DNA of 42,353 nucleotides from IMG/VR virus record IMGVR_UViG_2654587736_000008; one strand, 5' to 3'. This document shows positions 7,360 through 24,856 of the stretch, in pieces; the stretch's first letter is position 1; each line of letters starts with the position of its first letter. This stretch comes from a virus (lineage: Duplodnaviria; Heunggongvirae; Uroviricota; Caudoviricetes). The notes beneath the pieces are model-generated. The model did no database searches. It had not been told where the DNA came from and saw only the letters and a list, made by a program, of their open reading frames with translations. The translations under genes and the position numbers were made by a program.

Positions 7360-7419
7360 TCGTCATGCTCCATAAACGACAAAACCGCCCGCAGGCGGTT
7401 TCACATAAAACATTTTGCA

Positions 7420-8708: not shown

Positions 8709-8712
8709 GGGA

Positions 8713-9411: not shown

Positions 9412-9420
9412 CAGAGCCTC

Positions 9421-9750
9421 CTATGCCACGACCTGTTCAAAATCTGCCGTTATGGTTACCCACAACGCCCCCACGCTTGCCGACCATTTACGACAAACCA
9501 CCCTGATCGGCTTCCAGTCATAAGGTGGCGTCCACTGAAATGCGCGGACGCCACCGTGCCGTTCCAGAAAGGCTTTTAAAGATGGGTGTTCACATTTACG
9601 AACACGTATCGTCACGCTGTAAGTCGACAACTGGTTATTCAGTCCCGCCGCACGACGCTGTTCATAACCATCGCCCAGCTTCACTGTCACCACTTTCGGC
9701 TCTGATACCACATTCATATCCGGGCGCACTTTCCAGTGAAACGTCTCCAT
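9421..9750 (-). CDS. M: Minor tail protein M
   Basis: 109 aa, lambda gpM-like (METFHWKVRPDM...). Confidence 0.85.
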   Translation of the reverse strand: METFHWKVRPDMNVVSEPKVVTVKLGDGYEQRRAAGLNNQLSTYSVTIRVRKCEHPSLKAFLERHGGVRAFQWTPPYDWKPIRVVCRKWSASVGALWVTITADFEQVVA

Positions 9751-12700
9751 TACCGATATGCTCCACTTAACCGACCACCATCACGGGCCTGCTGTTGCAT
9801 AAAGTCCGCTGCCGCTTTTTTCCCAAGGTCATAAACCACCTTCAGGGCAGCAGGACCTATCTGCCCGTTCGTGCCATCGTTATTGATCTCGATGTTGTAC
9901 TGCGGGGCAAACATCGCCATACCTGAACCACCAATATCCGCCACAACCCCCAGCTTACCGTCAGCACCACGACGCAGTGGCAGAATGGCTTCAGGTCCAG
10001 CTTCCCCCATCACACCCGCGCCTTTTGCAAAAGCAAAAAACGTCGGACGGTTAACCACCGTGCCACTGTAGCGACTCAAATCAGCCGACTGATAAACACC
10101 GCCATCAGCATTGGCTACAAAATCAAAAGGCAGCGCGGAAGCAATGCCTTTTACCGCTTTCATTAAAGCTATCTGAGCCATGATTCTGGACATATCTGAC
10201 AGCACAGAAGAAGTAAAAGATTTGAAATTGAGTTTGCCTGTAGTACAGAATGTCGCCAGCCAATCACTCATGCTACTGAACGCAGACGTGAACAACTGTT
10301 CCACTGTCCCGGCTGTGTTATCCGCATTCTCAGTGACATTCTGGAGTGCACGCAGGACTCCGTTTTTCCAGTTACCCTGAGCAATTTCAAGCTGTTGCCA
10401 GTAACGGCGATTCTCATTCAGTTGTCGGTTCAGACTCTCCGTCAGCGCCTGCTCGGCCTTTCTGTAGTCATCCGTGTTATATGTCCCTTTCTGCTCACTA
10501 TCCCGCCTCAACTGCTCCAGCTGTTGCTGGTATTTCTGGCGAAGACTCAGTTGTACCTGATATCGCTGCCGCTGCTGATCACCCATACCAACCGTGGCGA
10601 TATCCAGGTCATGTTGCTGACGCTGAGCGCGCTCTTCTTCAGCCAGTTGACTGGTCAGCTGAATTGTTTTTTTCTTCAGATCGTTGAGTGCCGTCTGTTT
10701 CTGAAGCTCCTGCTGTTTTACATCCAGCAGCGTCAGTGCCTGAATCAGTTCATCTTTACGGGCCAGCACACTCTTTTCATCTGCCGTCAGTTTTTTCCCG
10801 TCCAGATCGCTGATGCGCTGCTGCAGAGCCAGAAGCTGTTTATGCGCTTCTGTCATCTTTTCAGTGGCAATGCCTGCTGACTGTCTTGCAGCAGCAATCT
10901 GTCCTTCCACCTGTGCCTGTTGCTGACTGTACTGCAGCAATAACCGGGTGGCCTCATCATTACGGGTTTCGCGTGTTTTTTTCTTACCGGATGCCAGGGC
11001 TTTCTCGTAACGTTCATTTTCACGTTGTATCGCCGCATCCCTGACAGCCTGATCGGCGTACTGCATGGCATTAATACGCGCAATTTCACGCTGATGTCGT
11101 GCAGCTTCCGTTTCATTCATCCGGTTCAGTGCAGCATTTTCAGCATTACGGCGTTTCTGTTGCTCCTGATAATTCCGCTCTGCCTGCTCTTTTGCATCCT
11201 GCAAATCCTTCTGGCGTTTTTTCTCCTGAAGATCGTTAAGACGCTGCTGATCGTATTCAACCTGAGAAGATGATGCCGTCCAGGGGAGTCTTTTCGCCCG
11301 CGACACTTTCTCCTGCAAAGTGGCAATCTGCGCATCCAGCGAATCTTCACGACCAATATTCATGGCCGCATCCCAGAACTGCTTCCACCAGTCAGATAAA
11401 GTTTGCAGCGTACTGCCCAGCGCATTGAGGTTATTATCAATATCCGCAGTACGCCGACCGGTTTCCTCTGCCAGTGCAGACATGGCTATCCGTGCCGCAT
11501 CACTGGACCGCCCCTGCTCTCCAAGGACGCGTATCTGCTCAAGCTGAGTGGCAATAAGAAAATGCAGCTCATTGTCCAGAGACTTCGCGGCATTTACAGG
11601 ATCATCCTTCAGCCGCTTAAACTGATTTATGGTATCGCTGACCGACTGGCCAACCGATCGCTCCATCTGTGCGGCAGCTCTCGCCACCATACCGATATCG
11701 TTTCCACGAAATGCACCACTCCCCACCACCTGAGCCAGCGCACCGGCTGCAGCATGTTGCGTGATACCATTCCCGGAAATAGCACGACTGAGCGTCCACA
11801 GCTGCCCGGCAGTGACTCCGGCATAATGCCCCGTCAGCGACAGCTGGCGGTTAAATTCTTCCCCCTCCTTCTGACCGTCATACCAGGCTTTACCCAGGCC
11901 ATAGACAGCCGCGGCAATACCGCCAATAACCCCGCCAAGCATCATGCCTTTCGGTGACATCAATGTGTCTATCCACCCAGCACGGTTAGCCAGCGTTATT
12001 CCGGATCCCCTCAGCGCACCTAAATTTCCGCGGGCCAGTTCACCTATCAGAACGCCTATCTCCTGACGGGCCGCTGCACTTTTCAGCCCCAGCGAATGCG
12101 TGGCTTTTCCTGCCTGCTCCATTTTGCGGATATACACTTCTGCAGCACTGCTTACCCCCAGCTGGGCAGCCTTAGCACGAAGCAACTCAGAAGAAGAAAG
12201 ATTCTGGCGGGTTGCCTGCTCTTTAAGCTGACGGATAAACGCCACTTTCTGTCGGGTAGCCTCTTCCTCAGCCTGTGTAAGAACACGGGTTTTCGCCGTA
12301 ACCTCAGAAATCAGCGCCAGATAATCCTGCTGACCAATCCCGCCACTGTTTCTGGCCTGTCGGATCTGCTGCTGAATACGCTGTAATTCCTGCAGACCCG
12401 CACTGGCCTGTTTCACACTGTCAATCTGACGATAAAACGCAGCAGCAGCTTTATCCTGAGCCTCCGCCAGAGCCATGGCCTGCGCCTGTTCCTCGCGCAT
12501 TTTCTGGCTCAGCGCCTCCATACGCTGGCGGGTTTTCTCCACCTCGCGGGCCATGCGTTCATGAGCCTGTGCGTTCTTCTCCACCGTCTGCGCATGAACG
12601 GATGCGGCTGTTGCAGCCGAAGACGCCGCCTGCGTTGTCTGCCGGGCGGCCTGAGTCTGACGCTCCATAAAACGCTGCATACGGGCAGAAGACCGTTCTG

Positions 12701-12806
12701 CATCGCTGGCTGCACCATTCAGAAGGTTTTTGATACGGGGGATTTCATTTTTAAACTCTGCCGCATCAATCCCCAAATCAATGACCAGGTTGGCTATCTG
12801 GTCCAT
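9750..12806 (-). CDS. H: Tail length tape measure protein H
   Basis: Start placed at ATG 12806 (MDQIANLVIDLGIDAAEF) with SD GGAGG; about 1018 aa, coiled-coil rich; C-terminus NNDGTNGQIGPAALK as in lambda gpH. Confidence 0.85.
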   Translation of the reverse strand: MDQIANLVIDLGIDAAEFKNEIPRIKNLLNGAASDAERSSARMQRFMERQTQAARQTTQAASSAATAASVHAQTVEKNAQAHERMAREVEKTRQRMEALSQKMREEQAQAMALAEAQDKAAAAFYRQIDSVKQASAGLQELQRIQQQIRQARNSGGIGQQDYLALISEVTAKTRVLTQAEEEATRQKVAFIRQLKEQATRQNLSSSELLRAKAAQLGVSSAAEVYIRKMEQAGKATHSLGLKSAAARQEIGVLIGELARGNLGALRGSGITLANRAGWIDTLMSPKGMMLGGVIGGIAAAVYGLGKAWYDGQKEGEEFNRQLSLTGHYAGVTAGQLWTLSRAISGNGITQHAAAGALAQVVGSGAFRGNDIGMVARAAAQMERSVGQSVSDTINQFKRLKDDPVNAAKSLDNELHFLIATQLEQIRVLGEQGRSSDAARIAMSALAEETGRRTADIDNNLNALGSTLQTLSDWWKQFWDAAMNIGREDSLDAQIATLQEKVSRAKRLPWTASSSQVEYDQQRLNDLQEKKRQKDLQDAKEQAERNYQEQQKRRNAENAALNRMNETEAARHQREIARINAMQYADQAVRDAAIQRENERYEKALASGKKKTRETRNDEATRLLLQYSQQQAQVEGQIAAARQSAGIATEKMTEAHKQLLALQQRISDLDGKKLTADEKSVLARKDELIQALTLLDVKQQELQKQTALNDLKKKTIQLTSQLAEEERAQRQQHDLDIATVGMGDQQRQRYQVQLSLRQKYQQQLEQLRRDSEQKGTYNTDDYRKAEQALTESLNRQLNENRRYWQQLEIAQGNWKNGVLRALQNVTENADNTAGTVEQLFTSAFSSMSDWLATFCTTGKLNFKSFTSSVLSDMSRIMAQIALMKAVKGIASALPFDFVANADGGVYQSADLSRYSGTVVNRPTFFAFAKGAGVMGEAGPEAILPLRRGADGKLGVVADIGGSGMAMFAPQYNIEINNDGTNGQIGPAALKVVYDLGKKAAADFMQQQARDGGRLSGAYR

Positions 12807-13119
12807 AACGCACACCTCCGGAAATACCTTCCCCAAGATGCATCAGTTCTTCGTCCGTTCGCTCCGGTATCCCGTTCTCTTCCGGTAAAAGGCTGAAATC
12901 AGCCACCGCAGCATCACTGCTGCCGGACACCATTCTCACGATCAATGCCTTCAGCGAGGCAAACTGCGCATCCATCCACACATCACTGAAGCTCTGCATC
13001 CGGAAATAATCGCCCCACTCACCAAGCTCAGTGGCCGACATTTCCGACAGCATCCGCCGCCAGTCTGCCCGCCGGAACTCCCGGGCAAGCCGCATGACAA
13101 ACTGCATTTCCCGCGTCAT
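12778..13119 (-). CDS. T: Tail assembly chaperone T segment (expected to be made as G-T fusion by -1 frameshift)
   Basis: ORF in the -1 frame relative to G, overlapping the G stop; a GGAAAAG motif lies just upstream of the G stop. Confidence 0.7.
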   Translation of the reverse strand: MTREMQFVMRLAREFRRADWRRMLSEMSATELGEWGDYFRMQSFSDVWMDAQFASLKALIVRMVSGSSDAAVADFSLLPEENGIPERTDEELMHLGEGISGGVRYGPDSQPGH

Positions 13120-13502
13120 GACTTTTCCGGCGTCAGCGCCTCATGCTCATCATCCCCGGCATTATCAATGGCCCCCATACCGCTCAGCGACAGAACCATC
13201 TCCGCCCCCGCACCCAGGGCATCATACGACCATGTTGTAATAACGGATGCGCAAAGCGTCTCTACATCCTTAGACTGATCCGCATTCCACAGTGAGCGGG
13301 AAACCAGCCAGGCATTGATATCCATCCCCATCCGCAGAAAAGCAATCTGTCGTTCAGCCTCCGGCAGTTCTCCCTCACCGGCATCAAACTTTGCCGTTCG
13401 CTGCTGAACAAACGCCAGATATTCAATTCTCTGCAGCCCGGACAGCTCACTGAGCACCACGGACTGTTTTTCATAATTAAACGTGCCCTGTTTCAGAAAC
13501 AT
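13116..13502 (-). CDS. G: Tail assembly chaperone G
   Basis: Start at the second ATG of the ATGATG pair (MFLKQGTF...), SD GGTGGAG; resembles lambda gpG. Confidence 0.8.
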   Translation of the reverse strand: MFLKQGTFNYEKQSVVLSELSGLQRIEYLAFVQQRTAKFDAGEGELPEAERQIAFLRMGMDINAWLVSRSLWNADQSKDVETLCASVITTWSYDALGAGAEMVLSLSGMGAIDNAGDDEHEALTPEKS

Positions 13503-13562
13503 CATGTTCTCCACCTGCAAAAAAGCCCCGGATAACCGGGGCAAATGATAAGTATCGTCCTG

Positions 13563-14306
13563 TTAACCTGCGGCGCTGACAGTCACCGCAGCCACAGCCA
13601 CAAAATTCCCGTCAGCGGTCATGCCCACAATGCTGACACTGCCCTGCTTCACGCCTTTCACCGTGGCTACAAGCCCGTTCAGGGTCACCGTGGCAGTCTG
13701 TGGATCTGACGAATGCACACTGATCGCTTTGTCACTGGCTCCGTCAGGTTTTACTGTAAAGGTCAGCGTGGTGGTTGCTCCCACTTTTACACTGGCAGAT
13801 GCCGGTGCCACCGTCAGCCCGGTAACGCTCACTGTTTCAGTGCCTTCCTCTGCCAGATACGGACGCCCCACACCGCTGATTTTCACAGTGCGGGTCATCA
13901 CGTCTTTTGAGGCAATGGTTTTACCCAGTGAACTCAGCCAGCCACGGAAAACATCAACAGTACCGTTGGGATATTTGATACGAAACGCGCAGACTTCACC
14001 GGAGTCGAACAACTGAACCAGTTTTTTCTGCCCGCTGTCACCCGGACGCCAGGCCAGCGTCGCCGAAGTATCACCGACTGATTTCTGCCCCTGGGTTGTC
14101 GTTTTCCAGTCTGCATCTTCATCATCGAGATAAGTATCATCTTCTGCATCAGCGGTCATTTCGCCAGGTTGCAGATCCTTCACCATCGCAAGACGCAGCC
14201 AGTCAGTGTCCGACAAAGGGTTCGCAAATGCGTCGCCGTTGCCGGTATACATCCAGAACGTCGTCCCCGCACCTTTCGTCTTTGCCAGTGGATTTGGTGT
14301 GGTCAT
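13563..14306 (-). CDS. V: Major tail protein V (with C-terminal Ig-like domain)
   Basis: Start at ATG 14306 (MTTPNPLAKTKGAGTT...) with SD AAGGAGG; lambda gpV-like throughout. Confidence 0.9.
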   Translation of the reverse strand: MTTPNPLAKTKGAGTTFWMYTGNGDAFANPLSDTDWLRLAMVKDLQPGEMTADAEDDTYLDDEDADWKTTTQGQKSVGDTSATLAWRPGDSGQKKLVQLFDSGEVCAFRIKYPNGTVDVFRGWLSSLGKTIASKDVMTRTVKISGVGRPYLAEEGTETVSVTGLTVAPASASVKVGATTTLTFTVKPDGASDKAISVHSSDPQTATVTLNGLVATVKGVKQGSVSIVGMTADGNFVAVAAVTVSAAG

Positions 14307-14316
14307 TGCCACCTCC

Positions 14317-14718
14317 TTAATTCGTGTACGTGATCTGGTACGTGATTTCCGCCATCGCCCAGGTGGCCATCTCATTATCACGTTGATAGTTAAAACCGAG
14401 TGGGATCAGGGTGTCGATGAGTCCGGAAAGTGCCGGTACATCATTCAGGGCCGGGAAAATGGTGCTCTCCATCCACATATCCAGCTCTGAATCCGGTGCC
14501 TGTGCCCGGATGAAGACAGCAATATGCAGAACAGCCTGCCAGTCATCTTCATCCGTCATTTTTCCGGTGTACTGAGCATCACTCAGCCACACCGCCACGG
14601 CAGGCAGTTCCTGCGCATCAATAAATGCCGGAAGCCCGTCAAAAAACGTGGCGCTGTCTCCACACTGTTCCCGAAGGCGTGCCAGTACGACCTGGCGGAT
14701 TTGTGTATGTCGGTTCAT
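14317..14718 (-). CDS. U: Tail terminator protein U
   Basis: ATG at 14718 overlaps the Z stop (ATGA); ATFFDG...AVAV...DSELD motifs as in lambda gpU. Alternative start at 14730. Confidence 0.8.
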   Translation of the reverse strand: MNRHTQIRQVVLARLREQCGDSATFFDGLPAFIDAQELPAVAVWLSDAQYTGKMTDEDDWQAVLHIAVFIRAQAPDSELDMWMESTIFPALNDVPALSGLIDTLIPLGFNYQRDNEMATWAMAEITYQITYTN

Positions 14719-15305
14719 CGGGTCAGCCATAATCTCAGTTGTTGTTTCAGTGCATACCCCAGCTGTTTCGGCATTTCCGCAGCAATGATGCGGTCGCGGG
14801 CATCTTCAAATGCCTGTGTCAGCGGTCCGGACAGCGGGATTTTCACTACCTCCACAGGAAGACGATTTTTTCTTGGCCTGCCCTGATGGTCATGCCCTGT
14901 TGCAAAACGCGCTTCAGGAAGACGCCTCAGAACATGCCAGCGGCCATTCGCCAGTTGCTGAACAAATGCCCCCCGGAAAAAGTATTTTCCCACTCTCAGT
15001 CCTTCACCAGCACGCCGCCGTGTTGTGTTCAGTTTGATGGCGGGCAGATTGCCCCGGTTAACGCGGATCCTGGCCGTCATTTTTCCTGACGGACTGGCTT
15101 TAAACACCCGGACACGCTGACGTACCAGTTTCAGGGGGATCCCTTTCACCTGGTTATCTCCCGCAACGGTATTCCCGGCAACCTGCCGGGTGGCAACCGA
15201 GACCGCTTTCTGTGCCACACGGTTTATCGCCCATGCGCTGGCCTGTGGCACCATACGGGTATCAAGGCTGTTCAGATTGCGGATGGCATTCTCAAGCCCC
15301 TTCAT
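14715..15305 (-). CDS. Z: Tail completion protein Z
   Basis: 196 aa; lambda gpZ-like (GRWHV...VKIP...LGYAL). Confidence 0.8.
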   Translation of the reverse strand: MKGLENAIRNLNSLDTRMVPQASAWAINRVAQKAVSVATRQVAGNTVAGDNQVKGIPLKLVRQRVRVFKASPSGKMTARIRVNRGNLPAIKLNTTRRRAGEGLRVGKYFFRGAFVQQLANGRWHVLRRLPEARFATGHDHQGRPRKNRLPVEVVKIPLSGPLTQAFEDARDRIIAAEMPKQLGYALKQQLRLWLTR

Positions 15306-15316
15306 CCCACACCTCT

Positions 15317-15592
15317 TTACTCAATAAAGATCATTGGCTTACCGTTAAAGCGTTCATGCCGTGTGACCGTCCATTGTTGTCCGTCATAAACAACGCGATC
15401 CCCGCGCCGTGGGCGGTATCCCGAAGAAAACACCACCAGAGAGACCGCAGGTCCGGACAGAGCATTCAGCTCTGCCAGTGTTTCTCCCGGGATCACAGTC
15501 ATATCGACATCATTAATCGAGGCTGTCTTTCCCATCTTTCTGACCGTGATAGCATCCATACGCGCTGCCAGCCGGGAAAAGGGATCAGACAT
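15317..15592 (-). CDS. Head-tail joining protein, FII-like
   Basis: 91 aa in the FII position; RGD-containing C-terminal region. Assignment rests mainly on position. Confidence 0.5.
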   Translation of the reverse strand: MSDPFSRLAARMDAITVRKMGKTASINDVDMTVIPGETLAELNALSGPAVSLVVFSSGYRPRRGDRVVYDGQQWTVTRHERFNGKPMIFIE

Positions 15593-15908
15593 TGAGTTTT
15601 ACCGGCACTTCTTCTGCACTGGTTCCGGCATCTGCCCAGACAACCCCGACCAGCGGATCAGAGCCGCTGTTAGTCAGCTGAACTTTTCCGGACTTCAGAT
15701 AAACCTTCTTACCCGTTTTCATGTCATCCGTTTTCAGCTTAGGCAGCATAAACACACCTTCGGTCATGCCGTCGCCTGTTTCACCCTGTGGAATATCGGT
15801 CAGCGCCACCGCAAAAACATCGCCCACCTGCACCAGATCTCCGCTGCTGATGGCTGCACTGGCAACAATCGCCACCGTTTTTCCTTCTTCTACAAAATTC
15901 TTTGCCAT
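15585..15908 (-). CDS. DUF2190-type head protein (capsid decoration/cement-like)
   Basis: Start MAKNFVEEGKTVAIV...; Gly/Val-rich small protein immediately downstream of the major capsid gene. Confidence 0.55.
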   Translation of the reverse strand: MAKNFVEEGKTVAIVASAAISSGDLVQVGDVFAVALTDIPQGETGDGMTEGVFMLPKLKTDDMKTGKKVYLKSGKVQLTNSGSDPLVGVVWADAGTSAEEVPVKLNV

Positions 15909-15951
15909 AACTGTCTCCGCACAGCCCCGTTCAGGGGCTGATTTCAGGTAC

Positions 15952-15970
15952 AAAAAAAGCCCTTACGGGC
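15952..15970 (-). terminator. Terminator-like hairpin after the capsid gene
   Basis: Minus strand GCCCGTAAGGGC followed by TTTTTTT, just 3' of the capsid stop. Confidence 0.4.
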
Positions 15971-15994
15971 CATCAGAGTTGTTGTCTGCGACGT

Positions 15995-17953
15995 TTACGC
16001 CGTACATTTCACCAGACCGCGGTGATCAACTGGCGCGACACCGGCGTCAATACGCACTTTCGTTGTCACGCCATCCACACTGAAGCCCTCCATCTGATCA
16101 ATATATGGCGTATCCACACCGTTGAGATAAGCCACTTCAATCGTATCGGAGCCTTTGGACGCAGCCAGGTAGAAAGTGGTCTGGCTGTTATCATCAAGAC
16201 GAGGCTCTGCAATAACGGTCGCAAAATCTTTCACCGGGTTAATAATACCGGCGTTAATGTCAGCCCCCTTGACACTTGAGGAGCGAATGACCTGGTTAGC
16301 AACAGACTCCATCGCCGTCGGTACCAGTACGAACGCAGGACGAATATTCAGATGACGCTCCCCCTCTTTCTGAACACGCATCAACTGGCGGGCTTTATCC
16401 AGCGATGCCACGTCCATTGCAGCGCTCTCCAGTACGTTTGCATGTTTCGCTTTATCGAACAGACTTACATTATCTGTGGAGATTTTCGGGTTAGACGTCA
16501 GAATGGCATAAACCAGATCGGCAATAGTGGATTTCGCCGCACGGCCCAGTTTCATCGGGACATCGGTCAGCATATTCAGATCATCATTGATAATGGCCTG
16601 ACGGGTGATACTGAACAGCTCGCCATAGGTCGCCAGTGCAATAGTGGCCTGTTTATCTCCGGTGGTGACGTATTTATATTCCGCCCCTTCACGCACCTGA
16701 CGCAGAGCACTGAAGCCCCCCATACCCACACGATGGGCAATTTTAAAATCAGACAACTGACCTTTCCGCGTCCACTGTTCATAGGTTTCAGGGGCATCTT
16801 CCCAGCCCTGCAGAATGGCTTTGTTCGCAACATCCAGCAGAATATTACCGAAGTCAGACGTACTGTGTGTGAACGCCGCACCGACCATCTGCATCGGGTT
16901 ATAACTGGAAACCCCAATCCCCCGTTCAGTCAGTGACATACGAGCATATTCACGCAGGGTCATCCCGTTGTAGACATTATCACGTTCGGTTTTTTCAAAT
17001 CCGGCACGCGCCATCAGCGCCTGGCGGATCCCGTCCCCCACAAAATTACCGTTACCGGCATAAATATGAGCCGGGGTATTTTTATTGGATGGCGTGGACT
17101 CGCGCCCCATCTCGTTCAACAGCTTTTCGCGGGCTTGCTCCAGCGAACATTCAGGATCGGCAAGACACTGAGCCTGCAGCGTCTGATAACGCCCGCCAAA
17201 CATGGCAAACAAATCATTAATACCGTTTACACGCGCTTTTTGCTCTGCCAGTACCTGCGCACGGATACTGTTTTCATCCACCACAGGTGCTGCTGCCTGC
17301 ACTGGCGTCCGGGAGGCTACAGGTTCATTATCCTGTACGCGTGGAGCACTGTTGCGTGGCGGAGTAATCATGTTTCGAATGGATTCCGGCATCTTTTTAA
17401 ATTCCTCTGTACGTTTTGACTGAATACATGCCATTGCCTTAACGGCTGGCGTTACCTGATCAGCAAATCCATGTGCCAGACATTCGGCACCGGACATCCA
17501 GGTCTCATCCGCCAGCATGGCAGCAATTTCATCGGTGGTTTTCCCGGTTTTCTGTGCATAAGCGGGTAACAGAACCGCCTCAACCTTATCGAGCAGGTCG
17601 GCATAGGTGCGCATGTCCTCCGCATCACCGCCCGTAAAGCCAAATGGTTTATGAATCATCATGAAGGTGTTTTCCGGCATAATGACCGGGTTTCCCACCA
17701 TCGCAATGACCGACGCCATTGACGCCGCCACACCGTCGACATAAACGGTAATGGACGCCCCATGTGTTTTCAGCGCATTAAAAATGGCGATGCCTTCAAA
17801 GACATCGCCACCCGGTGAATTAATATGGAGATTAATGTGGGTGATATCGCCCAGTGCATTCAGATCACTGATAAACTGCTTCGCTGTAACACCCCAGAAA
17901 CCAATCTCGTCATAAATATAAATATCCGCGTCACTCTGGTGACCAGCCTGCAT
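15995..17953 (-). CDS. Prohead protease (ClpP-like) fused to major capsid protein
   Basis: N-terminal ClpP-like domain (DIYIYDEIG, catalytic Ser in GVAASMAS, His in MMIHKP) continuous with a C-terminal HK97-fold-like capsid region; start uncertain (ATG 17953 chosen; ORF open to 18214). Confidence 0.75.
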   Translation of the reverse strand: MQAGHQSDADIYIYDEIGFWGVTAKQFISDLNALGDITHINLHINSPGGDVFEGIAIFNALKTHGASITVYVDGVAASMASVIAMVGNPVIMPENTFMMIHKPFGFTGGDAEDMRTYADLLDKVEAVLLPAYAQKTGKTTDEIAAMLADETWMSGAECLAHGFADQVTPAVKAMACIQSKRTEEFKKMPESIRNMITPPRNSAPRVQDNEPVASRTPVQAAAPVVDENSIRAQVLAEQKARVNGINDLFAMFGGRYQTLQAQCLADPECSLEQAREKLLNEMGRESTPSNKNTPAHIYAGNGNFVGDGIRQALMARAGFEKTERDNVYNGMTLREYARMSLTERGIGVSSYNPMQMVGAAFTHSTSDFGNILLDVANKAILQGWEDAPETYEQWTRKGQLSDFKIAHRVGMGGFSALRQVREGAEYKYVTTGDKQATIALATYGELFSITRQAIINDDLNMLTDVPMKLGRAAKSTIADLVYAILTSNPKISTDNVSLFDKAKHANVLESAAMDVASLDKARQLMRVQKEGERHLNIRPAFVLVPTAMESVANQVIRSSSVKGADINAGIINPVKDFATVIAEPRLDDNSQTTFYLAASKGSDTIEVAYLNGVDTPYIDQMEGFSVDGVTTKVRIDAGVAPVDHRGLVKCTA

Positions 17954-17966
17954 CCTGAACCAGGAA

Positions 17967-19475
17967 TTATTCTTCGGACTGGTCGTCGGTGTGCTGCGGC
18001 TCCTGTCGTTTCGTTGCGGCACTGCTGCCTCCTTTATCACTGGCCGGATCGGTATCAAATACCAGATCCAGCTTGCGGTTTTCATCAATTTCGGCCTTGC
18101 GCCGACGTTTGACATCATCCGGATTACGACCACCAGCACGTACCCAGTCTGATTCTGTCGCCGCTCCACCACGAATCTGGATTTTCCAGGCCTCAGCCTC
18201 CTTAACAGGGTCAATCCACGGCATCACCGGTCCGGAATACACCGCGGTATACAGTGAAGAACGGTCAAGATCGCGGGGTAGCCTGATAACACCGGATGCC
18301 ACAGCCTGTTTCAGCCAGGCACGATACATCGGGCGGGTGACGGCACCAATAAACCAGTCCTGCAGGATCAGGTAGCCATCAGTAGACTCAACCAGTTCCT
18401 GACGCTGGGCGCTGTAAGTGCCGTTATAGTTGCGTGCCGTACTGGAAAAACTCAGACGACTGCCCGCCGCCACGGCACGCAACTGACCATTACGAAAAGT
18501 TTCAAGGTTAGGATTGGGACGATCCGACTTCACCATTCCGATTTCTTCGCCGGGTTTCAGATCGTCGTAAATAATGCCTGGCTGAATGGTAAGCTCGCGT
18601 TCATTCTCCTTGCTGCCATTACCATCCGGTTCATAGCTCTGCCCGTCGCCTTTCCGGATGTACATCCCCAGAGCAGCGGCGATCCTTGCTGCAGTCAGCT
18701 CAGAATCTTCATACTCTTTCAGGGCACTGAGGCGGATCAGCACACCGGACAACAAAGACGTCCCGCGCATCTGGTGCAGACGGCGAACAAATTTAAGATG
18801 CAGCATTCGCTCTGCATCCACTTCTTTGGTTTCCATCTGCCGCCCGGATACGGGACGGCTTTTATACACCAGATATTTTTCGGGACGCCCCCAGTCATCA
18901 ACAAACACGCCCTGATTCAGCCTGTTGCTCTCATCACTGGTCATGGGAATAAAGTCCGGCTCGAGCGCCTCCAGCCAGAAATGAACACCGGCAGAAGGCG
19001 TCAGGCTGTTTATGCGCCCGGAAACCATCTGGGCAAACACCTCACCATCGCGCAGCCAGGTACGCAGCATCAGACGTTCCAGCATCGGACGGGTAAACTG
19101 CCCGGTGACTTCCGGACTGACAGACCATTCACTCCATCGGGTGCGTATCTCCGCTGCCAGATCACGGGCAATGGCCCCATTGCGTAATACCGGATGTGGC
19201 TCGACAATAATCCCGTTTTTCCCCACCACCCGTTCTTCCAGCTTGTCAAATACACCAATAACCAGATCGTGGTTGTTATCAAGGTAACGGGCCTGCTCAC
19301 GTAACGACACGGCCCCGTACTGGCTTAACTGGTCGGCAGTTCGGTTCTCCCGCCGGGCTTTGTGTGTCCGCGTCGTTTTTACGGCCTCATAAGCCTGGAT
19401 CACCGCACGGGAACGCAGCCTTGCCGCTTTCCATCCTGGTGAAAAAACGCCAATCACATCATCAAGAATTGCCAT
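17967..19475 (-). CDS. B: Portal protein (lambda gpB-like)
   Basis: Start MAILDDVIGVFSPGW at ATG 19475 overlapping the W stop; about 500 aa. Confidence 0.85.
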   Translation of the reverse strand: MAILDDVIGVFSPGWKAARLRSRAVIQAYEAVKTTRTHKARRENRTADQLSQYGAVSLREQARYLDNNHDLVIGVFDKLEERVVGKNGIIVEPHPVLRNGAIARDLAAEIRTRWSEWSVSPEVTGQFTRPMLERLMLRTWLRDGEVFAQMVSGRINSLTPSAGVHFWLEALEPDFIPMTSDESNRLNQGVFVDDWGRPEKYLVYKSRPVSGRQMETKEVDAERMLHLKFVRRLHQMRGTSLLSGVLIRLSALKEYEDSELTAARIAAALGMYIRKGDGQSYEPDGNGSKENERELTIQPGIIYDDLKPGEEIGMVKSDRPNPNLETFRNGQLRAVAAGSRLSFSSTARNYNGTYSAQRQELVESTDGYLILQDWFIGAVTRPMYRAWLKQAVASGVIRLPRDLDRSSLYTAVYSGPVMPWIDPVKEAEAWKIQIRGGAATESDWVRAGGRNPDDVKRRRKAEIDENRKLDLVFDTDPASDKGGSSAATKRQEPQHTDDQSEE

Positions 19476-19687
19476 CAGAACCTCGCCAGCCGGTACCCGG
19501 GATGCCCCCGTCGTCGTGTAATCAGAGCCGCAAGGCGGCGCTCCCACTCCTGCCGTCCCTGCCGGATCTCAGATAAGTTTTCCATGGTCATCTGCTGACC
19601 ATTAAAGGTGACGGATTTTCCGTCCAGCACCGCCATTTCAGCTTCCGTATAACGCTGAATCATGGCTTCGATATCATTCTGGTTCAT
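19475..19687 (-). CDS. W: Head-tail connector protein W
   Basis: gpW-like small protein ending RRRGHPGYRLARF; ATG at 19687 overlaps the terminase stop (ATGA). Confidence 0.75.
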   Translation of the reverse strand: MNQNDIEAMIQRYTEAEMAVLDGKSVTFNGQQMTMENLSEIRQGRQEWERRLAALITRRRGHPGYRLARF

Positions 19688-21786
19688 AACCATCCTCCGG
19701 AAGTCAGCCAGGGGTTAACATCGTCAGTTACTGTTTTCTTCCGTTTTTGTTTTTTAACAGGCGTGGATACCGGTTCCGGTGAGGGTGACGGTTCGGTACT
19801 GTCCGGGACACACTCCAGCCAGGTTTCCCGGCTCGCCCACTCCGGTGCATCCGGCCAGCGGATCTTTTCGTATCCATGCAGAATGACCAGAGCCTCGGCA
19901 TACACCATCAGGTCAAAAGCTTCGTTGGCACCGCGACCCGGCTTACTCCATTTCCCGTCACTGCTCCGCTCTTCATACGTCAGTTCGTCGTAAAACCAGC
20001 TCCCCAGCCAGTCAGGGAAATGCACATAGCCGGGACCTGGCGAGTCACGCCATAACGCGTTATTCACCCGGTCTTTCAGGGCATCCGTCTGAAGAAGCCA
20101 GAGCGGTACATCACCTGCGGCCTGCGCCCGTCGGCCCGTTCGTCCGGTGTTATCAGGGAATGTACGGGTGATCAGTTTTGCGCGCCGGATGCTGTCGCCC
20201 TTAAACAGGTAAATACGTTTACCAAGGCCATCACGACGGCAACGACGCCAGAATTTATAGGCATTATCAGTGACCCCGTCTTCACCGCCGGAGTCCACCG
20301 CCATTGCCATCAGTCGCATTTGTTGAGAAGGATCGGAGGCCAGCGGCCAGCTTTTATGAAAAACATCCGTCAGCAGGACATCCCAGTCTTCCGGATAACT
20401 GGCCGGATCAATTCGCTGGCTCTCCCCGTCGCTGTCACCGCGCAATGACTGCGTGATGTTGTAACGATCAATAATCCAGCGTTCGCCACGGCTGCCATAG
20501 CCCGTTACCTGAACCACAAAACGGCGATGACGTCCCGCCTGCACATCCACTGTCGCCACAAGGAAATTAACGCCATCCGGCACACTGCGGGAAGGAACTG
20601 GCTCTGCCCGCTGCTCAAGCAGTTCACTTTTTCGTTGCTCCATGCTGGCGCGGGGAAGATAAGGTAATCCCCAGTCGGTATTGATAACCGTCTTGAGTGT
20701 TTCTTCACTTCCGGTTGTCTCGTATTCCTGTTCTGCAGTAAGCAGTTTGTAAACGAGTTGCGAGAGTGTCTGGTAAGCAGCTGCCGGACCCTCCATCCAG
20801 AATGACGCAATACGTGAGCGTCGGGGATCACCATAACGACTGCCATCCGCATTGATGGATTCACCATCCCGCAGCCAGACCCCACGTCCGTTCAGCTCAC
20901 GTTTTTGTTCAGGCATAATCCGTCCTGAACAGGAAGGACACTGAATATAAGCCGCCTCACTTGCCAGCACGGGATCGGCAATATCACGGAAACCAGCAAC
21001 CACATCGCCGCAGGGCTGAAAATACTCACCACAGTGTGGACAGGGCCAGTACCAGCGACGGCGATCGCCACGGTTATAGAGCGACAGTATCCCAGTGGTT
21101 GGTGGAGCCTCATGCGGTGAAGTCCGTCGCCATTTCACATCCTTCACATCCCTGCCGGGGGAACTCTCCACCAGCGTCATACCACTGGACATAAATGTTG
21201 TGGTACGTTTTGAGGCAAGAGAGAAAGCATCCCCCTCGCCATCAATATCTTCCGGAAAACGGTCATAATCCGTCAGCGCGACGCATTTATAATCTGATGA
21301 GGACATGATATTGACTGACGGCCAGCCGATTTTCAGGTAGTTGCCAGCAAGGAATGTTCTGTCATAAACGTTGTTGTCATTTTTGTTCGGACTCAGGCGA
21401 CTGACCACTTCCGGGCTGACGCGAAACGTTCTGGCGAGTCGTTTTTTGGAGTGTTCGCGGGCTTTTTCCTCCGTCATCTGAATGATCAGCATATCCGCAG
21501 GGTCGCAAATCACGTTGTAAATCACCCAGCCGTCAATCAGGCCGATAGTCTTGCCGGTTCGTGCCGGGCCAACAAATATCACTGCGTCGTATTCACGCGA
21601 GGCCAGGCAGTTCATCGGCTCAATAACATACGGTGCCACCAGCGGATCCCACGGGACTGAGTTCCCTGCCCCCATGGGCACCCGCATATACTGAGCAACG
21701 GCATCAGCAACCCGCATTCGTCTCGGTGCGCGAAGGATATAACCTGAATCGGTTCGTGCTGCCTTTGCGGTTTCCTGATTCAGCAT
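19684..21786 (-). CDS. A: Terminase large subunit (lambda gpA-like)
   Basis: 700 aa; Walker A-like VGPARTGKT; collinear with lambda A. Confidence 0.9.
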   Translation of the reverse strand: MLNQETAKAARTDSGYILRAPRRMRVADAVAQYMRVPMGAGNSVPWDPLVAPYVIEPMNCLASREYDAVIFVGPARTGKTIGLIDGWVIYNVICDPADMLIIQMTEEKAREHSKKRLARTFRVSPEVVSRLSPNKNDNNVYDRTFLAGNYLKIGWPSVNIMSSSDYKCVALTDYDRFPEDIDGEGDAFSLASKRTTTFMSSGMTLVESSPGRDVKDVKWRRTSPHEAPPTTGILSLYNRGDRRRWYWPCPHCGEYFQPCGDVVAGFRDIADPVLASEAAYIQCPSCSGRIMPEQKRELNGRGVWLRDGESINADGSRYGDPRRSRIASFWMEGPAAAYQTLSQLVYKLLTAEQEYETTGSEETLKTVINTDWGLPYLPRASMEQRKSELLEQRAEPVPSRSVPDGVNFLVATVDVQAGRHRRFVVQVTGYGSRGERWIIDRYNITQSLRGDSDGESQRIDPASYPEDWDVLLTDVFHKSWPLASDPSQQMRLMAMAVDSGGEDGVTDNAYKFWRRCRRDGLGKRIYLFKGDSIRRAKLITRTFPDNTGRTGRRAQAAGDVPLWLLQTDALKDRVNNALWRDSPGPGYVHFPDWLGSWFYDELTYEERSSDGKWSKPGRGANEAFDLMVYAEALVILHGYEKIRWPDAPEWASRETWLECVPDSTEPSPSPEPVSTPVKKQKRKKTVTDDVNPWLTSGGWL

Positions 21787-22277
21787 TACTCCTCCTGCTG
21801 TAATTCCTCCTCATCATCCGCACCTGCTTCGGTCACCCGCAGGGCTATCTGATCGCGCAGATCATCAATAATGGACTGAACACGGCTCACAGCGGCAGGC
21901 TGCAGGCCGCAGTCACGTTCCAGAATATCCGGTAATGTCTCCAGCACCTGCACGACCGCTTTTGCCCAGATGGCAAACTCCCGTCTGACATCACTGGCCG
22001 GAATGAGTTGTGCCGTTTCCTGTTCGAACTTAAGACGCTCACGTTCAGACTGATACCAGGCTTTGCGTTCATGTGGATCCATTTCGCCCTCAGCAACCGG
22101 CGGTGGTAACCCCATAAATTCAGTCAGAATATCGGTCAACCGGTATAGCTTGAGTTTGTCATGTCCACCAGCGGGACGAATGTTTTTCAGTCTTGCCACG
22201 ACAGTCTGGCGGTGCAGACCAGATAAAGCCGCCAGTTGATTAATATTCAGCACCAGGTTTTTCAACTCATGATCCAT
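21786..22277 (-). CDS. Terminase small subunit (Nu1-like)
   Basis: 163 aa; N-terminal wHTH (LNINQLAALSGLHRQTVVARLKN); acidic C-terminus; SD GGAGG. Confidence 0.8.
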   Translation of the reverse strand: MDHELKNLVLNINQLAALSGLHRQTVVARLKNIRPAGGHDKLKLYRLTDILTEFMGLPPPVAEGEMDPHERKAWYQSERERLKFEQETAQLIPASDVRREFAIWAKAVVQVLETLPDILERDCGLQPAAVSRVQSIIDDLRDQIALRVTEAGADDEEELQQEE

Positions 22278-22289
22278 ATTTCCTCCGGA

Positions 22290-22470
22290 GAGCTTTAAAC
22301 ATGCATCGTGCGAACAACTTTAAGAAAACGCGTTCGATGTCGAACAAAAAACACTCAATTCGACATGCAAAAAACAAATAACCATTAATAATCAATAAGA
22401 TGCAAAGATGATGGTGGCCAATAAAAATGCAAAAACTAGCCTTTTTCCGCGACGCTCCCGCCCCGTGGCA
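22290..22470 (-). other. Candidate cos site: cosB-like repeats (22300-22376) and cosN-like GC-rich element (22447-22466)
   Basis: Minus strand reads GGGGCGGGAGCGTCGCGG, resembling lambda cosN GGGCGGCGACCTCGCGG, about 170 bp upstream of Nu1; TCGAACA/TCGACAT motif occurs three times between. Confidence 0.5.
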
Positions 22471-22519
22471 GGCCACCCCACCGGGAGGACCCGTCAGCCT
22501 GACAGCCATGACGAACGTC

Positions 22520-22795
22520 TTATACAGCCCTTGCATGAATGGCATCGGGATAATCCAGAAAGGAATAGCATCGACCCACAAGAATCTGTGTGAGTGTCCT
22601 GTTTCTTCCACCCCCGCACAGGACTGGCGAGCATGAGGGACAACCTCGCGAACCATAACCGCGCTGATGACAGGACTGGCCCGGCTTGTATTGCTTCCAG
22701 CCTTCGCTTTTGTGGCTTTTGCAATAGCCTGACGGATCTGTGGTGGTATGGCGGCAGCCGCGAACTCGGCATGCTTTTGAGGTTCGAGGGAGCAT
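22520..22795 (-). CDS. Cys-rich small ORF with HNH-endonuclease-like N-terminus; possibly a degraded gene
   Basis: MLPRTSKACRVRGCRHTTTDPSGYCKSHKSEGWKQYKPG...HQRGYGSR pattern; the downstream part does not continue the expected HNH motifs in any single frame. Confidence 0.3.
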   Translation of the reverse strand: MLPRTSKACRVRGCRHTTTDPSGYCKSHKSEGWKQYKPGQSCHQRGYGSRGCPSCSPVLCGGGRNRTLTQILVGRCYSFLDYPDAIHARAV

Positions 22796-22910
22796 ATGTA
22801 CTCCAATGAAGAAGCCACCGACATAGTCTCCTCCATTCGTCGTGAAACTATTTTCATCTACCCAGTAATGAACTCTTTGAAGAGTTGTAATCAATACAAC
22901 TCGCTAATGG

Positions 22911-22934
22911 AGAGGCTTGTCTCACACGTGAGAC
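22911..22934. repeat. Perfect 24-bp palindrome / hairpin (GCTTGTCTCACACGTGAGACAAGC)
   Basis: 10-bp arms around a CACG centre, in the intergenic region between the lysis and packaging modules. Confidence 0.6.
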
Positions 22935-23289
22935 AAGCTTCCTGTTTGATTTACTGGACACTATAGAAGGACAGAATGCCTTCCTCACTCGAATCACATC
23001 AATTAAGGAGGTTCAACATGTTTCATTCCACAAGTCATCAGGCTGTAATTATGGCAGCATCAGTTTGTGCCACAGACCTTTTCCGCTTCACTTTGAGCCT
23101 GATTCATTTCTACCTGACCGGCTCGCCTCTATCTTTCTAATCCCCGATTTATCCAAATTTCACTGCCATAATGCCGACATTCTCTGCCATTGTTGGCTCC
23201 GTTTATCCGTTAAAAGGGATATCAGTTAAGTTATCCCGTGCAGGGTATAAGCCATTATCAAACCCACCCGTAGATAGGCTTTGTAATGG

Positions 23290-23808
23290 CTACTTCTTCA
23301 GAAATGATTCGATGAATTCACGTCGAGGATGACGATAGTTCAGAATATCTTCTGGCATCCTCATAAAGCGGTTGTTGCCGTCTTTGGCAGTAACAAAACA
23401 GCTGTGAACTCCGCAGACATCCGTTTTGATCGTGTCGCTATACTCAAAAAGCAACTGAGCCATCTTCTCTTGCCATTCTGGAGGCATAGCCTCCATGAAT
23501 ACTCGCGGCATCACGCAGAACGACGCATGCGTAAGACCAAACCACAGTTGCAGGTCTTTACGATATTCTTCATCCATCGTCTTTACCTTTGTTGCAATAA
23601 AAAGCCCCGCGAATGCGAGGCTAAATCCTAGTGTTTGTGATGACTGGCTCTTATCTAAACGCAGCCCCTTACCGCGCGCCAAATGCTCAACTTTAAGCAT
23701 CAGCAATGAGATGTTTAATCTGGATTCACTCCAGAAGTGATCACCACCCTGTCTACAGAGCCAGATGTGAAGGATGATGAGTAAAATTATCTCTATCATC
23801 GAAGGCAT
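23290..23808 (-). CDS. Hypothetical protein in the bor position (moron candidate), N-terminal hydrophobic segment
   Basis: 172-aa ORF after Rz; relatively AT-rich; no recognisable family. Confidence 0.45.
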
Positions 23809-24263
23809 TGCGTCCTGATATATTCCTGAAGCGTTCTCAGTGCTGTCTGGTCTCTGATGATTCCGTCCCGGATACCGAGAACGTTTCGTCCAGCAACTGG
23901 AGAGAGTTCGACGGTGGCATCATTGCCCATGCCGGAGGCGCTGGAGGTTTCGGCTGAGGATGGCACAGAGCATTTTCCTTTGACGAGCACCCGACCACCA
24001 TTATCAAGCTTGCGCCGAAGAGCATCATTTTTAGCTTTCGCATCAGCCAACTCCTTCGTGTATTTAGCATCGAGTACATCAGCAGCACGCTGGCGTTGCT
24101 GCATGTCAGTAATGGTGGCGGTCGCCTGCTTCAGCTCACTGACTTTTTTATCACGCTGTTCTTTGTAGGCGATGGCGTTATCACGGTAATGATTGACCGC
24201 CCACGACAGGCAGACGATGGTGCAGATAACCAGAGTATAAATAATCGCTGCGACTCTGCTCAC
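23796..24263 (-). CDS. Rz: Spanin inner-membrane subunit Rz (i-spanin)
   Basis: N-terminal TM ([19 protein letters not shown]), coiled-coil body, C-terminal Cys; GTG start overlapping endolysin stop (TTG at 24278 also possible). Confidence 0.8.
23837..24043 (-). CDS. Rz1: Spanin outer-membrane lipoprotein Rz1 (o-spanin), embedded in Rz in the +1 frame
   Basis: [21 protein letters not shown] lipobox followed by Pro-rich [11 protein letters not shown]. Confidence 0.8.
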
Positions 24264-24793
24264 TGATCTATCCCCCAACAGGCTAATGCGCTTTCCTGGT
24301 CACGACGAATAACCTGTCCATAGCAGTTATTTGAACGTATGCGGCAATCGCGCCCACCATCTTTTATCCACCAGCGAATCGCCTCGCATGCGCCCTTACG
24401 ATCACCGGCATTCAGCCGCTTATAAAACGTCGACGGGAAACACTTACCGGGGCCAATGTTATAGGGACAGAATGACGCTATACCCGCTTTCTGTGGTTCG
24501 GTCAGTGGTACTTTAATATTGCGCTCTACCCATGCCAGCGCCTTATCACGTTCAATAGCGTTAACCTGGTCGCATTTTTCCTTCGACAGCTTCATTCCCG
24601 GTATGACGGGCTTACCATCCACCATTGTGGCACCCCGACAGATGGTCCAGATGCCGGCCCCATCGCGGTATGCCGTTGTGTGGTTACCTTCTTTTTCATC
24701 CAGAAACTGGTCGAGAATATCAGGCGCGGGCGCACCGACGGCAATCAGTGCCAGAACGGCAGCCGACAGGCCGTATCTGATTTTTGCGTTCAT
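24260..24793 (-). CDS. R: SAR endolysin (T4-lysozyme-like, GH24)
   Basis: 177 aa; N-terminal signal-anchor-release-like segment ([16 protein letters not shown]), then lysozyme-like body resembling phage 21 R. Confidence 0.8.
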
Positions 24794-24856
24794 GGATATT
24801 TATCAGGATTTATCGGTTTCTGCCCACGGACAGGTTTATCTGTTCCGGTCAGTGAC

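What the first reader, a model, noticed from the sequence alone, without database searches (positions are those of the whole stretch)
22520..22894. Cys-rich ORF with an HNH-endonuclease-like N-terminus next to cos, apparently decayed
The peptide CRVRGCRHTTTDPSGYCKSHKSEGWKQYKPG...HQRGYGSR resembles the start of phage HNH endonucleases that assist terminases, but the rest of the expected motif is not found in any one frame. Either this is a remnant of a former HNH gene or a novel small zinc-ribbon protein.
Basis: inference. Interest (0 to 1): 0.4.

Follow-up and report, generated by a model that had tools for sequence, protein, structure and literature searches.

The report
Truncated HNH gene stump beside cos
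This is the first 49 codons of a phage HNH endonuclease gene, cut off where an HK97-like phage recombined with a lambda-like DNA-packaging module; it is an ordinary, already annotated pseudogene and not a new protein.

Summary
The ORF and peptide are real. The ORF is not a gene that decayed in place, and it is not a new zinc-ribbon protein.

- **HNH part.** From the true ATG at 22795, the first 49-50 codons (22646-22795, minus strand) are 86% identical to the N-terminal zinc-ribbon part of the 116-aa HNH endonuclease of Shigella phage SfIV. The catalytic HNH domain (residues 66-112 of intact proteins) is absent from all three frames and from the rest of the window.
- **Junction.** HNH-type DNA homology stops at 22649. 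From 22663 downward the DNA is 96-98% identical to the cos flank of lambda-type phages that carry no HNH gene. The two homologies overlap in 15 bp (CGCGGTTATGGTTCG, codons 45-49, RGYGS). I read this as a crossover at microhomology.
- **Tail.** The remaining 42 codons are read-through into cos-flanking DNA. They end 25 bp before a cosQ-like site and 56 bp before cosN (22452-22463).
- **Packaging module.** The adjacent terminase is gpA/lambda-type. Intact relatives of the HNH gene sit next to P27/HK97-type terminases.
- **Distribution.** The same junction occurs in 38 of 5426 complete E. coli genomes and in none of 50,697 phage records.
- **No constraint.** Sister copies carry C14Y, a lost stop codon and frameshifted tails.
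- **Prior annotation.** RefSeq already marks 22646-22795 as "HNH endonuclease, incomplete, missing C-terminus".

Interest is low.

The parts
22646..22795 (-). 5' stump of an HNH endonuclease gene. Codons 1-49 are HNH-derived and codon 50 is already junction-derived. It encodes the N-terminal zinc-ribbon region (C9-x4-C14 ... C25-x2-H28 ... RGYGS).
   Evidence: 86% aa identity to SfIV gp54 residues 1-50. RefSeq PGAP marks exactly this span in strain EC9682 as 'HNH endonuclease, incomplete, missing C-terminus'.
22649..22663 (-). 15-bp crossover microhomology, CGCGGTTATGGTTCG on the minus strand (codons 45-49, RGYGS).
   Evidence: All HNH-type hits begin at 22649 and all lambda-type cos-flank hits end at 22663. 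The intact gene in locus L011 has the identical 15-mer, and PhiR40_1 matches 14 of 15.
22520..22648 (-). Read-through tail of the ORF (codons 50-91 plus the TAA stop), encoded by lambda-type cos-flanking DNA; not HNH-derived.
   Evidence: From the junction down to cosN (22440-22663), 96.5% identical to PhiR40_1, which has no HNH gene (a longer 22201-22663 alignment gives 98%). PhiR40_1-type sequences carry 1-nt indels here. Sister copies lose the stop or change frame.
22796..22894 (-). Upstream extension of the mechanical ORF. It is the non-coding leader of the former HNH gene, with a Shine-Dalgarno GGAG at 22801-22804.
   Evidence: Homologous to sequence upstream of the annotated ATG in SfIV and vB_EcoS-640R1.
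22479..22494 (-). cosQ-like element, ACGGGTCCTCCCGGTG.
   Evidence: 15 of 16 bases match lambda 48471-48487 (one gap), at lambda's spacing from cosN give or take 1 nt.
22452..22463 (-). cosN-like 12-nt cohesive-end sequence GGGCGGGAGCGT (lambda: GGGCGGCGACCT).
   Evidence: Aligned with the lambda end joint. The mEp460_4F5 record ends 5 nt away.
22278..22451 (-). Presumed cosB-type region between cosN and the small terminase gene (inferred by position only).
   Evidence: Position relative to cosN and the small terminase start, as in lambda. Binding sites were not tested.
21786..22277 (-). Small terminase-position gene, DUF1441 family.
   Evidence: Pfam PF07278, E 4.6e-44.
19684..21786 (-). Lambda gpA-type large terminase.
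   Evidence: Pfam GpA_ATPase E 8.5e-72 and GpA_nuclease E 1.1e-85.
22796..23090 (-). Intergenic block that normally sits between the spanin and HNH genes in SfIV-like and vB_EcoS-640R1-like phages. It is part of the same imported patch and contains the palindrome at 22912-22941.
   Evidence: 85% identical to SfIV and 93% to vB_EcoS-640R1.
23091..23180 (-). 3' stump (last 30 codons; the stop codon follows at 23088-23090) of an SfIV gp53-like o-spanin gene. It marks the other end of the imported patch.
   Evidence: tblastn of gp53 residues 84-113, 80% identity, E 1.7e-10. SfIV-type and 640R1-type homology ends at 23179, and PhiR40_1-type homology resumes at 23202.

Best explanation
The ORF is a recombination scar. 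A lambdoid phage of the SfIV / vB_EcoS-640R1 kind carried lysis genes, an intergenic block, a 116-aa zinc-ribbon HNH endonuclease, cos, and a P27-type small plus HK97-type large terminase. It recombined with a phage carrying a lambda-type packaging module (cosQ-cosN-cosB, a DUF1441 small subunit, a gpA-type large terminase). The crossover fell in 15 bp of near-identity between codons 45-49 of the HNH gene and the DNA about 190 bp upstream of lambda-type cosN. That removed the catalytic HNH domain and left the promoter-proximal 49 codons reading on into cos-flank DNA until a chance stop. According to the HK97 packaging paper I read, HK97 encodes an HNH endonuclease (gp74) that stimulates cos cleavage by its terminase, and lambda does not. 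From this I infer that the loss cost the recombinant nothing. I also infer that the stump is transcribed with the late operon, and it may be translated into a 91-aa peptide, but it shows no sign of being maintained by selection. Shown: the homology boundaries, the absence of the HNH domain, the terminase types, the cos position, the recurrence of the junction and the variability among copies. Inferred: the crossover mechanism, the order of events and the lack of function.
For: - HNH identity is confined to residues 1-50. In intact proteins the HNH domain lies at residues 66-112 (PF01844, E 4e-16). It gives no hit in any frame here.
- The DNA homology switches within 22649-22663: SfIV/HNH-type above, PhiR40_1/mEp460/lambda-type cos flank below.
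- The window's terminase is gpA-type. The intact HNH gene in E. coli YZ3E2001 (locus L011) is followed by Terminase_4 and PF03354/PF20441 terminase genes.
- The cos elements lie 25-56 bp downstream of the ORF's stop.
- The same junction is in 38 of 5426 complete E. coli genomes, within different lysis-gene contexts. In locus L010 the upstream lysis genes and iss gene follow the vB_EcoS-640R1 arrangement, as expected for a simple single-crossover product.
- Sister copies carry C14Y and H16N, a lost stop codon, a 7-gap divergent tail and frameshifted tails.
- PGAP annotates the span as an incomplete HNH pseudogene.
- Literature: HK97 encodes an HNH endonuclease that promotes cos cleavage and lambda does not (PMC9410871, which cites Kala et al. 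2014). N-terminal zinc-ribbon HNH nickases are encoded next to cos and terminase genes (PMC3592412). Temperate phages exchange DNA by relaxed homologous recombination (PMC3945230; title and abstract only).
Against: - The stump keeps its ATG and Shine-Dalgarno sequence. In this window all four putative zinc ligands are intact, and the ORF is open for 91 codons, so expression of a peptide cannot be excluded.
- dN/dS over 50 codons is uninformative: 0.35 between stump alleles and 0.12-0.19 between intact genes, with tiny counts.
- A 14-of-15 match between two short regions is unlikely by chance (my rough estimate is about 0.006 expected). An older shared ancestry of that 15-mer is therefore not formally excluded.
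Confidence: 0.93

Rival explanations
1. The 91-aa chimeric ORF (zinc-ribbon domain plus a new tail) is an expressed, functional small protein. It might be a DNA-binding factor near cos, or a catalytically dead decoy that interferes with the HNH-dependent packaging of competing HK97-type phages.
For: The ATG, Shine-Dalgarno sequence and C9/C14/C25/H28 are intact in this window. The ORF lies in the late-operon orientation, and no terminator-like site lies on this strand between 23603 and the ORF. Stand-alone zinc-ribbon proteins next to HNH genes do exist (PMC3592412). An identical 91-aa protein was deposited as 'endonuclease' from E. coli RS218.
Against: All four sister copies fetched carry C14Y and H16N. 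The tail differs by lost stop, indels and frame among copies, and it tracks non-coding cos-flank variation. There is no HNH partner in the window. The junction is rare: 38 of 5426 E. coli genomes and no phage record. No family-library hit.
Confidence: 0.04
2. The HNH gene decayed in place through frameshifts and point mutations, so that its C-terminal half is still present but unrecognisable or split between frames.
For: The ORF continues 42 codons beyond the last recognisable HNH residue, and all three frames are open for long stretches.
Against: The DNA below 22663 is 96-98% identical to the cos flank of phages with no HNH gene, and shows no alignable similarity to the 3' half of intact HNH genes. 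There is no HNH profile hit in any frame at E up to 1 and no tblastn hit for residues 51-116.
Confidence: 0.02
3. The junction is an assembly chimera between two prophages of one genome.
For: E. coli genomes often hold several lambdoid prophages with shared segments; a genome with any match has a median of 2 matching places.
Against: The identical junction is present in 38 independent complete genomes from different hosts and countries, within differing flanks.
Confidence: 0.01

Closest known systems
HNH endonuclease gp54 of Shigella phage SfIV (YP_008766918.1), with the equivalent genes of SfI, SfII, SfV, ST64B and vB_EcoS-640R1. These are zinc-ribbon HNH endonucleases of 'Group 1' in Xu & Gupta 2013 (PMC3592412).
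   Same: 86% identical over residues 1-50. Same CxxxxC...CxxH...RGYGS N-terminus, same upstream leader and same position between the spanin genes and cos.
   Different: Residues 51-116, which hold the whole HNH catalytic domain and its [CxxC]2 zinc site, are missing. The downstream partner is a gpA-type terminase, not a P27/HK97-type one.
HK97 gp74, the HNH protein reported to stimulate terminase cleavage at cos (Kala et al. 2014, as cited in PMC9410871).
   Same: Same genomic logic: a small HNH gene at the right genome end, beside cos and the terminase genes.
   Different: gp74 is 'Group 3' and lacks the N-terminal zinc ribbon (PMC3592412). It therefore shares essentially nothing with the part retained here. 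The function is not retained.
GVE2 HNH endonuclease, PDB 5H0M (PMC5304195).
   Same: The closest solved relative of the intact protein (E 2.8e-12 over residues 1-113), and it includes the N-terminal Cys motif.
   Different: Its first 38 residues are disordered in the crystal (PMC5304195). No solved structure therefore covers the part that survives here.
RefSeq pseudogene MU524_RS16060 (E. coli EC9682) and its equivalents in other strains; GenBank 'endonuclease [Escherichia coli RS218]', 91 aa.
   Same: The same locus and sequence, 99.9-100% identical.
   Different: None. The existing annotation does not describe the crossover or the origin of the tail. One strain labels the same 150 bp 'DUF8602 domain-containing protein, incomplete'.

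Membership tests
HNH endonuclease (Pfam PF01844/PF14279; cos-associated phage HNH) | A beta-beta-alpha-metal HNH catalytic motif with a [CxxC]2 zinc site | tested here: not met
   No HNH-family hit at E up to 1 in any of the three minus-strand frames, whereas intact SfIV and L011 proteins hit PF01844 at residues 66-112 with E about 3e-16. No tblastn match to residues 51-116 anywhere in the window.
HNH endonuclease (Pfam PF01844/PF14279; cos-associated phage HNH) | Colinear full-length homology (about 116 aa) to family members | tested here: not met
   Homology ends at residue 49/50.
HNH endonuclease (Pfam PF01844/PF14279; cos-associated phage HNH) | N-terminal zinc-ribbon motifs (CxxxxC and CxxH) of the Group 1 enzymes | tested here: met
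   C9-x4-C14 and C25-x2-H28 are present in the window. The fetched sister copies have C14Y. Metal binding was not tested.
HNH endonuclease (Pfam PF01844/PF14279; cos-associated phage HNH) | Gene placed between the lysis cassette and cos/terminase | tested here: met
   Minus-strand order: lysozyme, Rz, stumps, cos, terminase genes.
HNH endonuclease (Pfam PF01844/PF14279; cos-associated phage HNH) | Cognate P27-type small and HK97-type large terminase next door | tested here: not met
   The window has DUF1441 and GpA_ATPase/GpA_nuclease. The intact relative L011 has Terminase_4 and TerL_ATPase/TerL_nuclease.
HNH endonuclease (Pfam PF01844/PF14279; cos-associated phage HNH) | Nicking activity, or stimulation of cos cleavage | not testable with these tools
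   Needs biochemistry. The catalytic residues are absent.
Lambda-type cos site | A 12-nt cosN and a cosQ about 30 bp upstream, collinear with lambda, directly upstream of the small terminase gene | tested here: met
   GGGCGGGAGCGT against lambda GGGCGGCGACCT. The cosQ-like ACGGGTCCTCCCGGTG sits at lambda's spacing give or take 1 nt. The genome ends of mEp460_4F5 map within 5 nt.
Lambda-type cos site | Cleavage by terminase to give 12-nt cohesive ends | not testable with these tools
   Needs end-sequencing of virion DNA.
Stand-alone zinc-ribbon proteins next to HNH genes (Group 4 of Xu & Gupta 2013) | An intact HNH endonuclease gene immediately adjacent | tested here: not met
   No HNH domain anywhere in the window.
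Stand-alone zinc-ribbon proteins next to HNH genes (Group 4 of Xu & Gupta 2013) | A conserved reading frame across copies | tested here: not met
   Stop codon lost in L007, tail frameshifted or replaced in L008 and in proteins P0002-P0004 and P0075, and C14Y.

The most novel reading that the evidence does not exclude
The stump is kept as an expressed 91-aa zinc-ribbon peptide that acts as a nuclease-dead decoy. It would bind cos DNA or the terminase of incoming HK97/SfIV-type phages and so block their HNH-dependent packaging, giving a prophage-encoded exclusion function created by gene truncation.
Probability: 0.03. Interest if true: 0.45.

Novelty: already known. Interest (0 to 1): 0.08.

Why it matters
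It matters little beyond correct annotation. It is a clean example of how lambdoid phages swap whole packaging modules. The crossover can be pinned to a 15-bp microhomology inside a gene, and the accessory HNH gene became dispensable once its partner terminase was replaced by a lambda gpA-type enzyme. For genome scans it is a reminder that a long open frame continuing past a domain stump can be read-through into unrelated, conserved non-coding DNA, here the cos flank. Such a frame should not be called a new protein or a frameshifted gene.

Tried and rejected
- **HNH profiles.** Pfam and NCBIfam scans of all three minus-strand frames and three plus-strand ORFs gave nothing relevant.
- **HNH elsewhere in the window.** tblastn with two full-length HNH proteins against the whole window found no second piece.
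- **Direct BLAST of the region against lambda's joined ends.** Only short collinear cosQ/cosN matches came back. They locate cos but are not significant on their own (E about 0.9). A global alignment and the ends of the mEp460_4F5 record corroborate them.
- **dN/dS on the 50 codons.** Too few changes to be informative. The differences between stump alleles are confined to codons 1-16, probably because of a second recombination.
- **Rfam scan.** No RNA family in 22200-23400.
- **Promoter scan.** No sigma-70-like site in 22200-23900.
- **Consensus fold of the palindrome at 22912-22941.** The fourth sequence I supplied (L011) was not homologous there, so the result is weak.
- **Deliberately not run.** Structure prediction of the 91-aa ORF: the available homologues are at least 78% identical over only 50 residues, and the tail would misalign to HNH domains. 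The exhaustive representative-protein search: it would not change the verdict.

Full report
**Observation.** The window holds a minus-strand ORF at 22520-22894 (124 aa, TTG start) containing the quoted peptide. It lies in a lambdoid prophage. On the minus strand the order is: lysozyme (24260-24793), Rz-like spanin (23796-24278), the ORF, a DUF1441 small-terminase-position gene (21786-22277) and a large terminase (19684-21786). Around the ORF (22400-23300) the window is 99.9% identical to a prophage of E. coli EC9682, and 98.4% over the 19.8-kb stretch 5054-24846. The 91-aa product counted from the internal ATG is identical to a protein deposited from E. coli RS218 as "endonuclease".

**What the HNH resemblance covers.** BLASTP against the 116-aa HNH endonuclease gp54 of Shigella phage SfIV gives 43 of 50 identities over residues 1-50 and nothing beyond. 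tblastn of two full-length HNH proteins against the whole window finds only that piece, at 22795-22646 (E 8e-25 and 7e-16), and no match for residues 51-116. In the intact proteins Pfam places the HNH domain at residues 66-112 (E about 3e-16). None of the three minus-strand frames across the region gives any HNH-family hit, even at E up to 1. The retained part is therefore only the N-terminal region, with C9-x4-C14, C25-x2-H28 and RGYGS. This matches the N-terminal zinc-ribbon domain described for phage HNH nicking enzymes encoded next to cos and terminase genes (PMC3592412). The biological start is the ATG at 22795, preceded by GGAG at 22801-22804. The 33 codons upstream in the mechanical ORF align with non-coding leader in SfIV and vB_EcoS-640R1.

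**Why the gene stops there.**
- SfIV-type and HNH-type DNA similarity covers window 22649-23179.
- Similarity to lambda-type cos-bearing phages that have no HNH gene (PhiR40_1, mEp460, Ayreon, 2B8 and others) covers 22201-22663 at 96-98%.
- A 151-nt probe across the joint makes the pattern uniform. Every listed HNH-type hit, in phages and in E. coli genomes, starts at probe base 65 or 66, apart from one weak 75% hit that starts at base 69. Every listed cos-flank hit but two ends at base 79, which is window 22663.
- The two homologies overlap in 15 bp, CGCGGTTATGGTTCG, which are codons 45-49 (RGYGS). The intact gene in E. coli YZ3E2001 has the identical 15-mer, and PhiR40_1 matches 14 of 15.
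- I infer a crossover at this microhomology. It is the kind of event expected from the relaxed homologous recombination reported to drive mosaicism in temperate phages (PMC3945230; I read only its title and abstract).
- The remaining 42 codons (22648-22523) and the TAA stop are translated cos-flank DNA.

**Position of cos.** On the minus strand, ACGGGTCCTCCCGGTG (22494-22479) and ACG|GGGCGGGAGCGT|CGCGG (cosN at 22463-22452) are collinear with lambda's cosQ region and cosN (GGGCGGCGACCT), at the same spacing give or take 1 nt. The deposited ends of phage mEp460_4F5 map to window 22469, 5 nt from the lambda-equivalent nick. The ORF's stop codon is thus 25 bp upstream of the cosQ-like site. "Next to cos" is correct.

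**Why losing the gene was tolerated.** Intact relatives of this HNH gene are followed by a P27-family small terminase (Terminase_4) and a PF03354/PF20441 large terminase. The window has DUF1441 and a gpA-type large terminase with GpA_ATPase and GpA_nuclease domains. [quoted passage not shown] 2014). A recombinant that received the lambda-type cos and terminase would therefore not need the HNH protein. This step is inference.

**The stump is one end of a patch.**
- The SfIV/640R1-like segment (22649-23179) also ends inside a gene on its other side. Window 23180-23091 encodes the last 30 residues of an SfIV gp53-like o-spanin (80% identity, E 1.7e-10).
- From 23202 upward the window again follows PhiR40_1.
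- In E. coli WP5-W18-ESBL-11 the lysis genes and the iss gene upstream of the stump follow the vB_EcoS-640R1 arrangement, with the window's similarity ending at the same 23179 boundary. This is what a simple single-crossover product would look like.
- In the window a second exchange replaced the lysis side.

**Recurrence and lack of constraint.**
- The joint occurs in 38 of 5426 complete E. coli genomes and in none of 50,697 phage records.
- The four other copies I fetched share the same breakpoint. They carry C14Y and H16N, so a putative zinc ligand is lost.
- One copy has lost the stop codon and reads through cosQ and cosN. Another has a divergent tail with 7 gaps and a different stop.
- Deposited proteins from further genomes show tails in other frames or with other sequences.
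- PhiR40_1-type cos flanks carry single-base indels within the "tail", as expected for non-coding DNA.
- All stumps share E26K and R42C relative to the intact proteins I compared.
- dN/dS on 50 codons is uninformative.

**Existing annotation.** RefSeq PGAP marks exactly 22646-22795 as "HNH endonuclease; incomplete; missing C-terminus" in several strains. In one strain it is "DUF8602 domain-containing protein, incomplete".

**Comparison with known families.** The closest relatives are the zinc-ribbon HNH endonucleases of SfIV, SfI, SfII, SfV and ST64B-like phages. The closest solved structure is GVE2 HNH (5H0M, E 2.8e-12 for the intact protein). Its first 38 residues are disordered in the crystal (PMC5304195), so the surviving part has no structural template. 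HK97 gp74 belongs to the group without the N-terminal zinc ribbon (PMC3592412). The stump fails the defining tests for an HNH endonuclease: it has no catalytic domain, no full-length colinearity and no cognate terminase. It should be filed as a pseudogene fragment, not as a family member.

**Verdict.** The "HNH remnant" reading is right, but the mechanism is truncation at a recombination joint, not decay in place. The "novel zinc-ribbon protein" reading is not supported. A residual possibility of about 3-4% is that the 91-aa peptide is made and does something, for example as a nuclease-dead decoy against HNH-dependent phages. This is an ordinary, already annotated feature of lambdoid mosaicism.

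Noticed in passing
window 23091-23180 (-): The last 30 codons of an SfIV gp53-like o-spanin (Rz1-type) gene (its stop codon follows at 23088-23090), stranded far from the window's own Rz/Rz1 genes. It is a second gene stump and marks the other end of the imported 530-bp patch.
   Followed up: partly
window 23290-23593 (-): About 300 bp that is absent from PhiR40_1, where the flanks are contiguous. It carries a 95-aa ORF (23290-23577; PGAP WP_000343116.1) with no Pfam or NCBIfam hit, and looks like a moron-type insertion. A terminator-like hairpin lies at 23622-23603 just upstream.
   Followed up: partly
window 23659-23808 (-): In the near-identical EC9682 prophage, PGAP annotates this span as a partial i-spanin Rz pseudogene directly downstream of the intact Rz-like gene. 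So the stretch from Rz to cos holds at least three gene fragments.
   Followed up: no
window 22912-22941: A 13-bp-stem palindrome (GAGGCTTGTCTCAC ACGT GAGACAAGCTTC on the plus strand) lies in the leader upstream of the former HNH gene. SfIV and vB_EcoS-640R1 keep the hairpin with two compensatory changes (GTCTCAC/GTGAGAC against GTCCAAC/GTTGGAC). This suggests a conserved RNA hairpin or a protein-binding site of unknown role.
   Followed up: partly
L009 1541-2218 and L010 1521-2198 (E. coli N32 and WP5-W18-ESBL-11): These genomes carry window 22732-23018 twice in tandem. That gives two HNH stumps in a row, of 21 codons and 50 codons, with different alleles. It is evidence of repeated unequal recombination at this spot.
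   Followed up: partly
window 33405-33492 (-) and 33517-33593 (-): Rfam matches above the gathering score to C4 antisense RNA (83.6 bits) and to the isrK Hfq-binding sRNA (62.5 bits), adjacent to each other in the early region of the prophage.
   Followed up: no
window 22331-22346 (-) and surroundings: An inverted repeat, TGTTCGACATCGAACG, with a further TCGAA motif nearby, lies between cosN and the small-terminase start. These could be terminase small-subunit binding sites of the presumed cosB.
   Followed up: no
whole window: No tRNA genes were found. The closely related EC9682 prophage has tRNA-Arg, tRNA-Arg and tRNA-Met upstream of its lysis cassette. The two prophages therefore differ in that module.
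   Followed up: no
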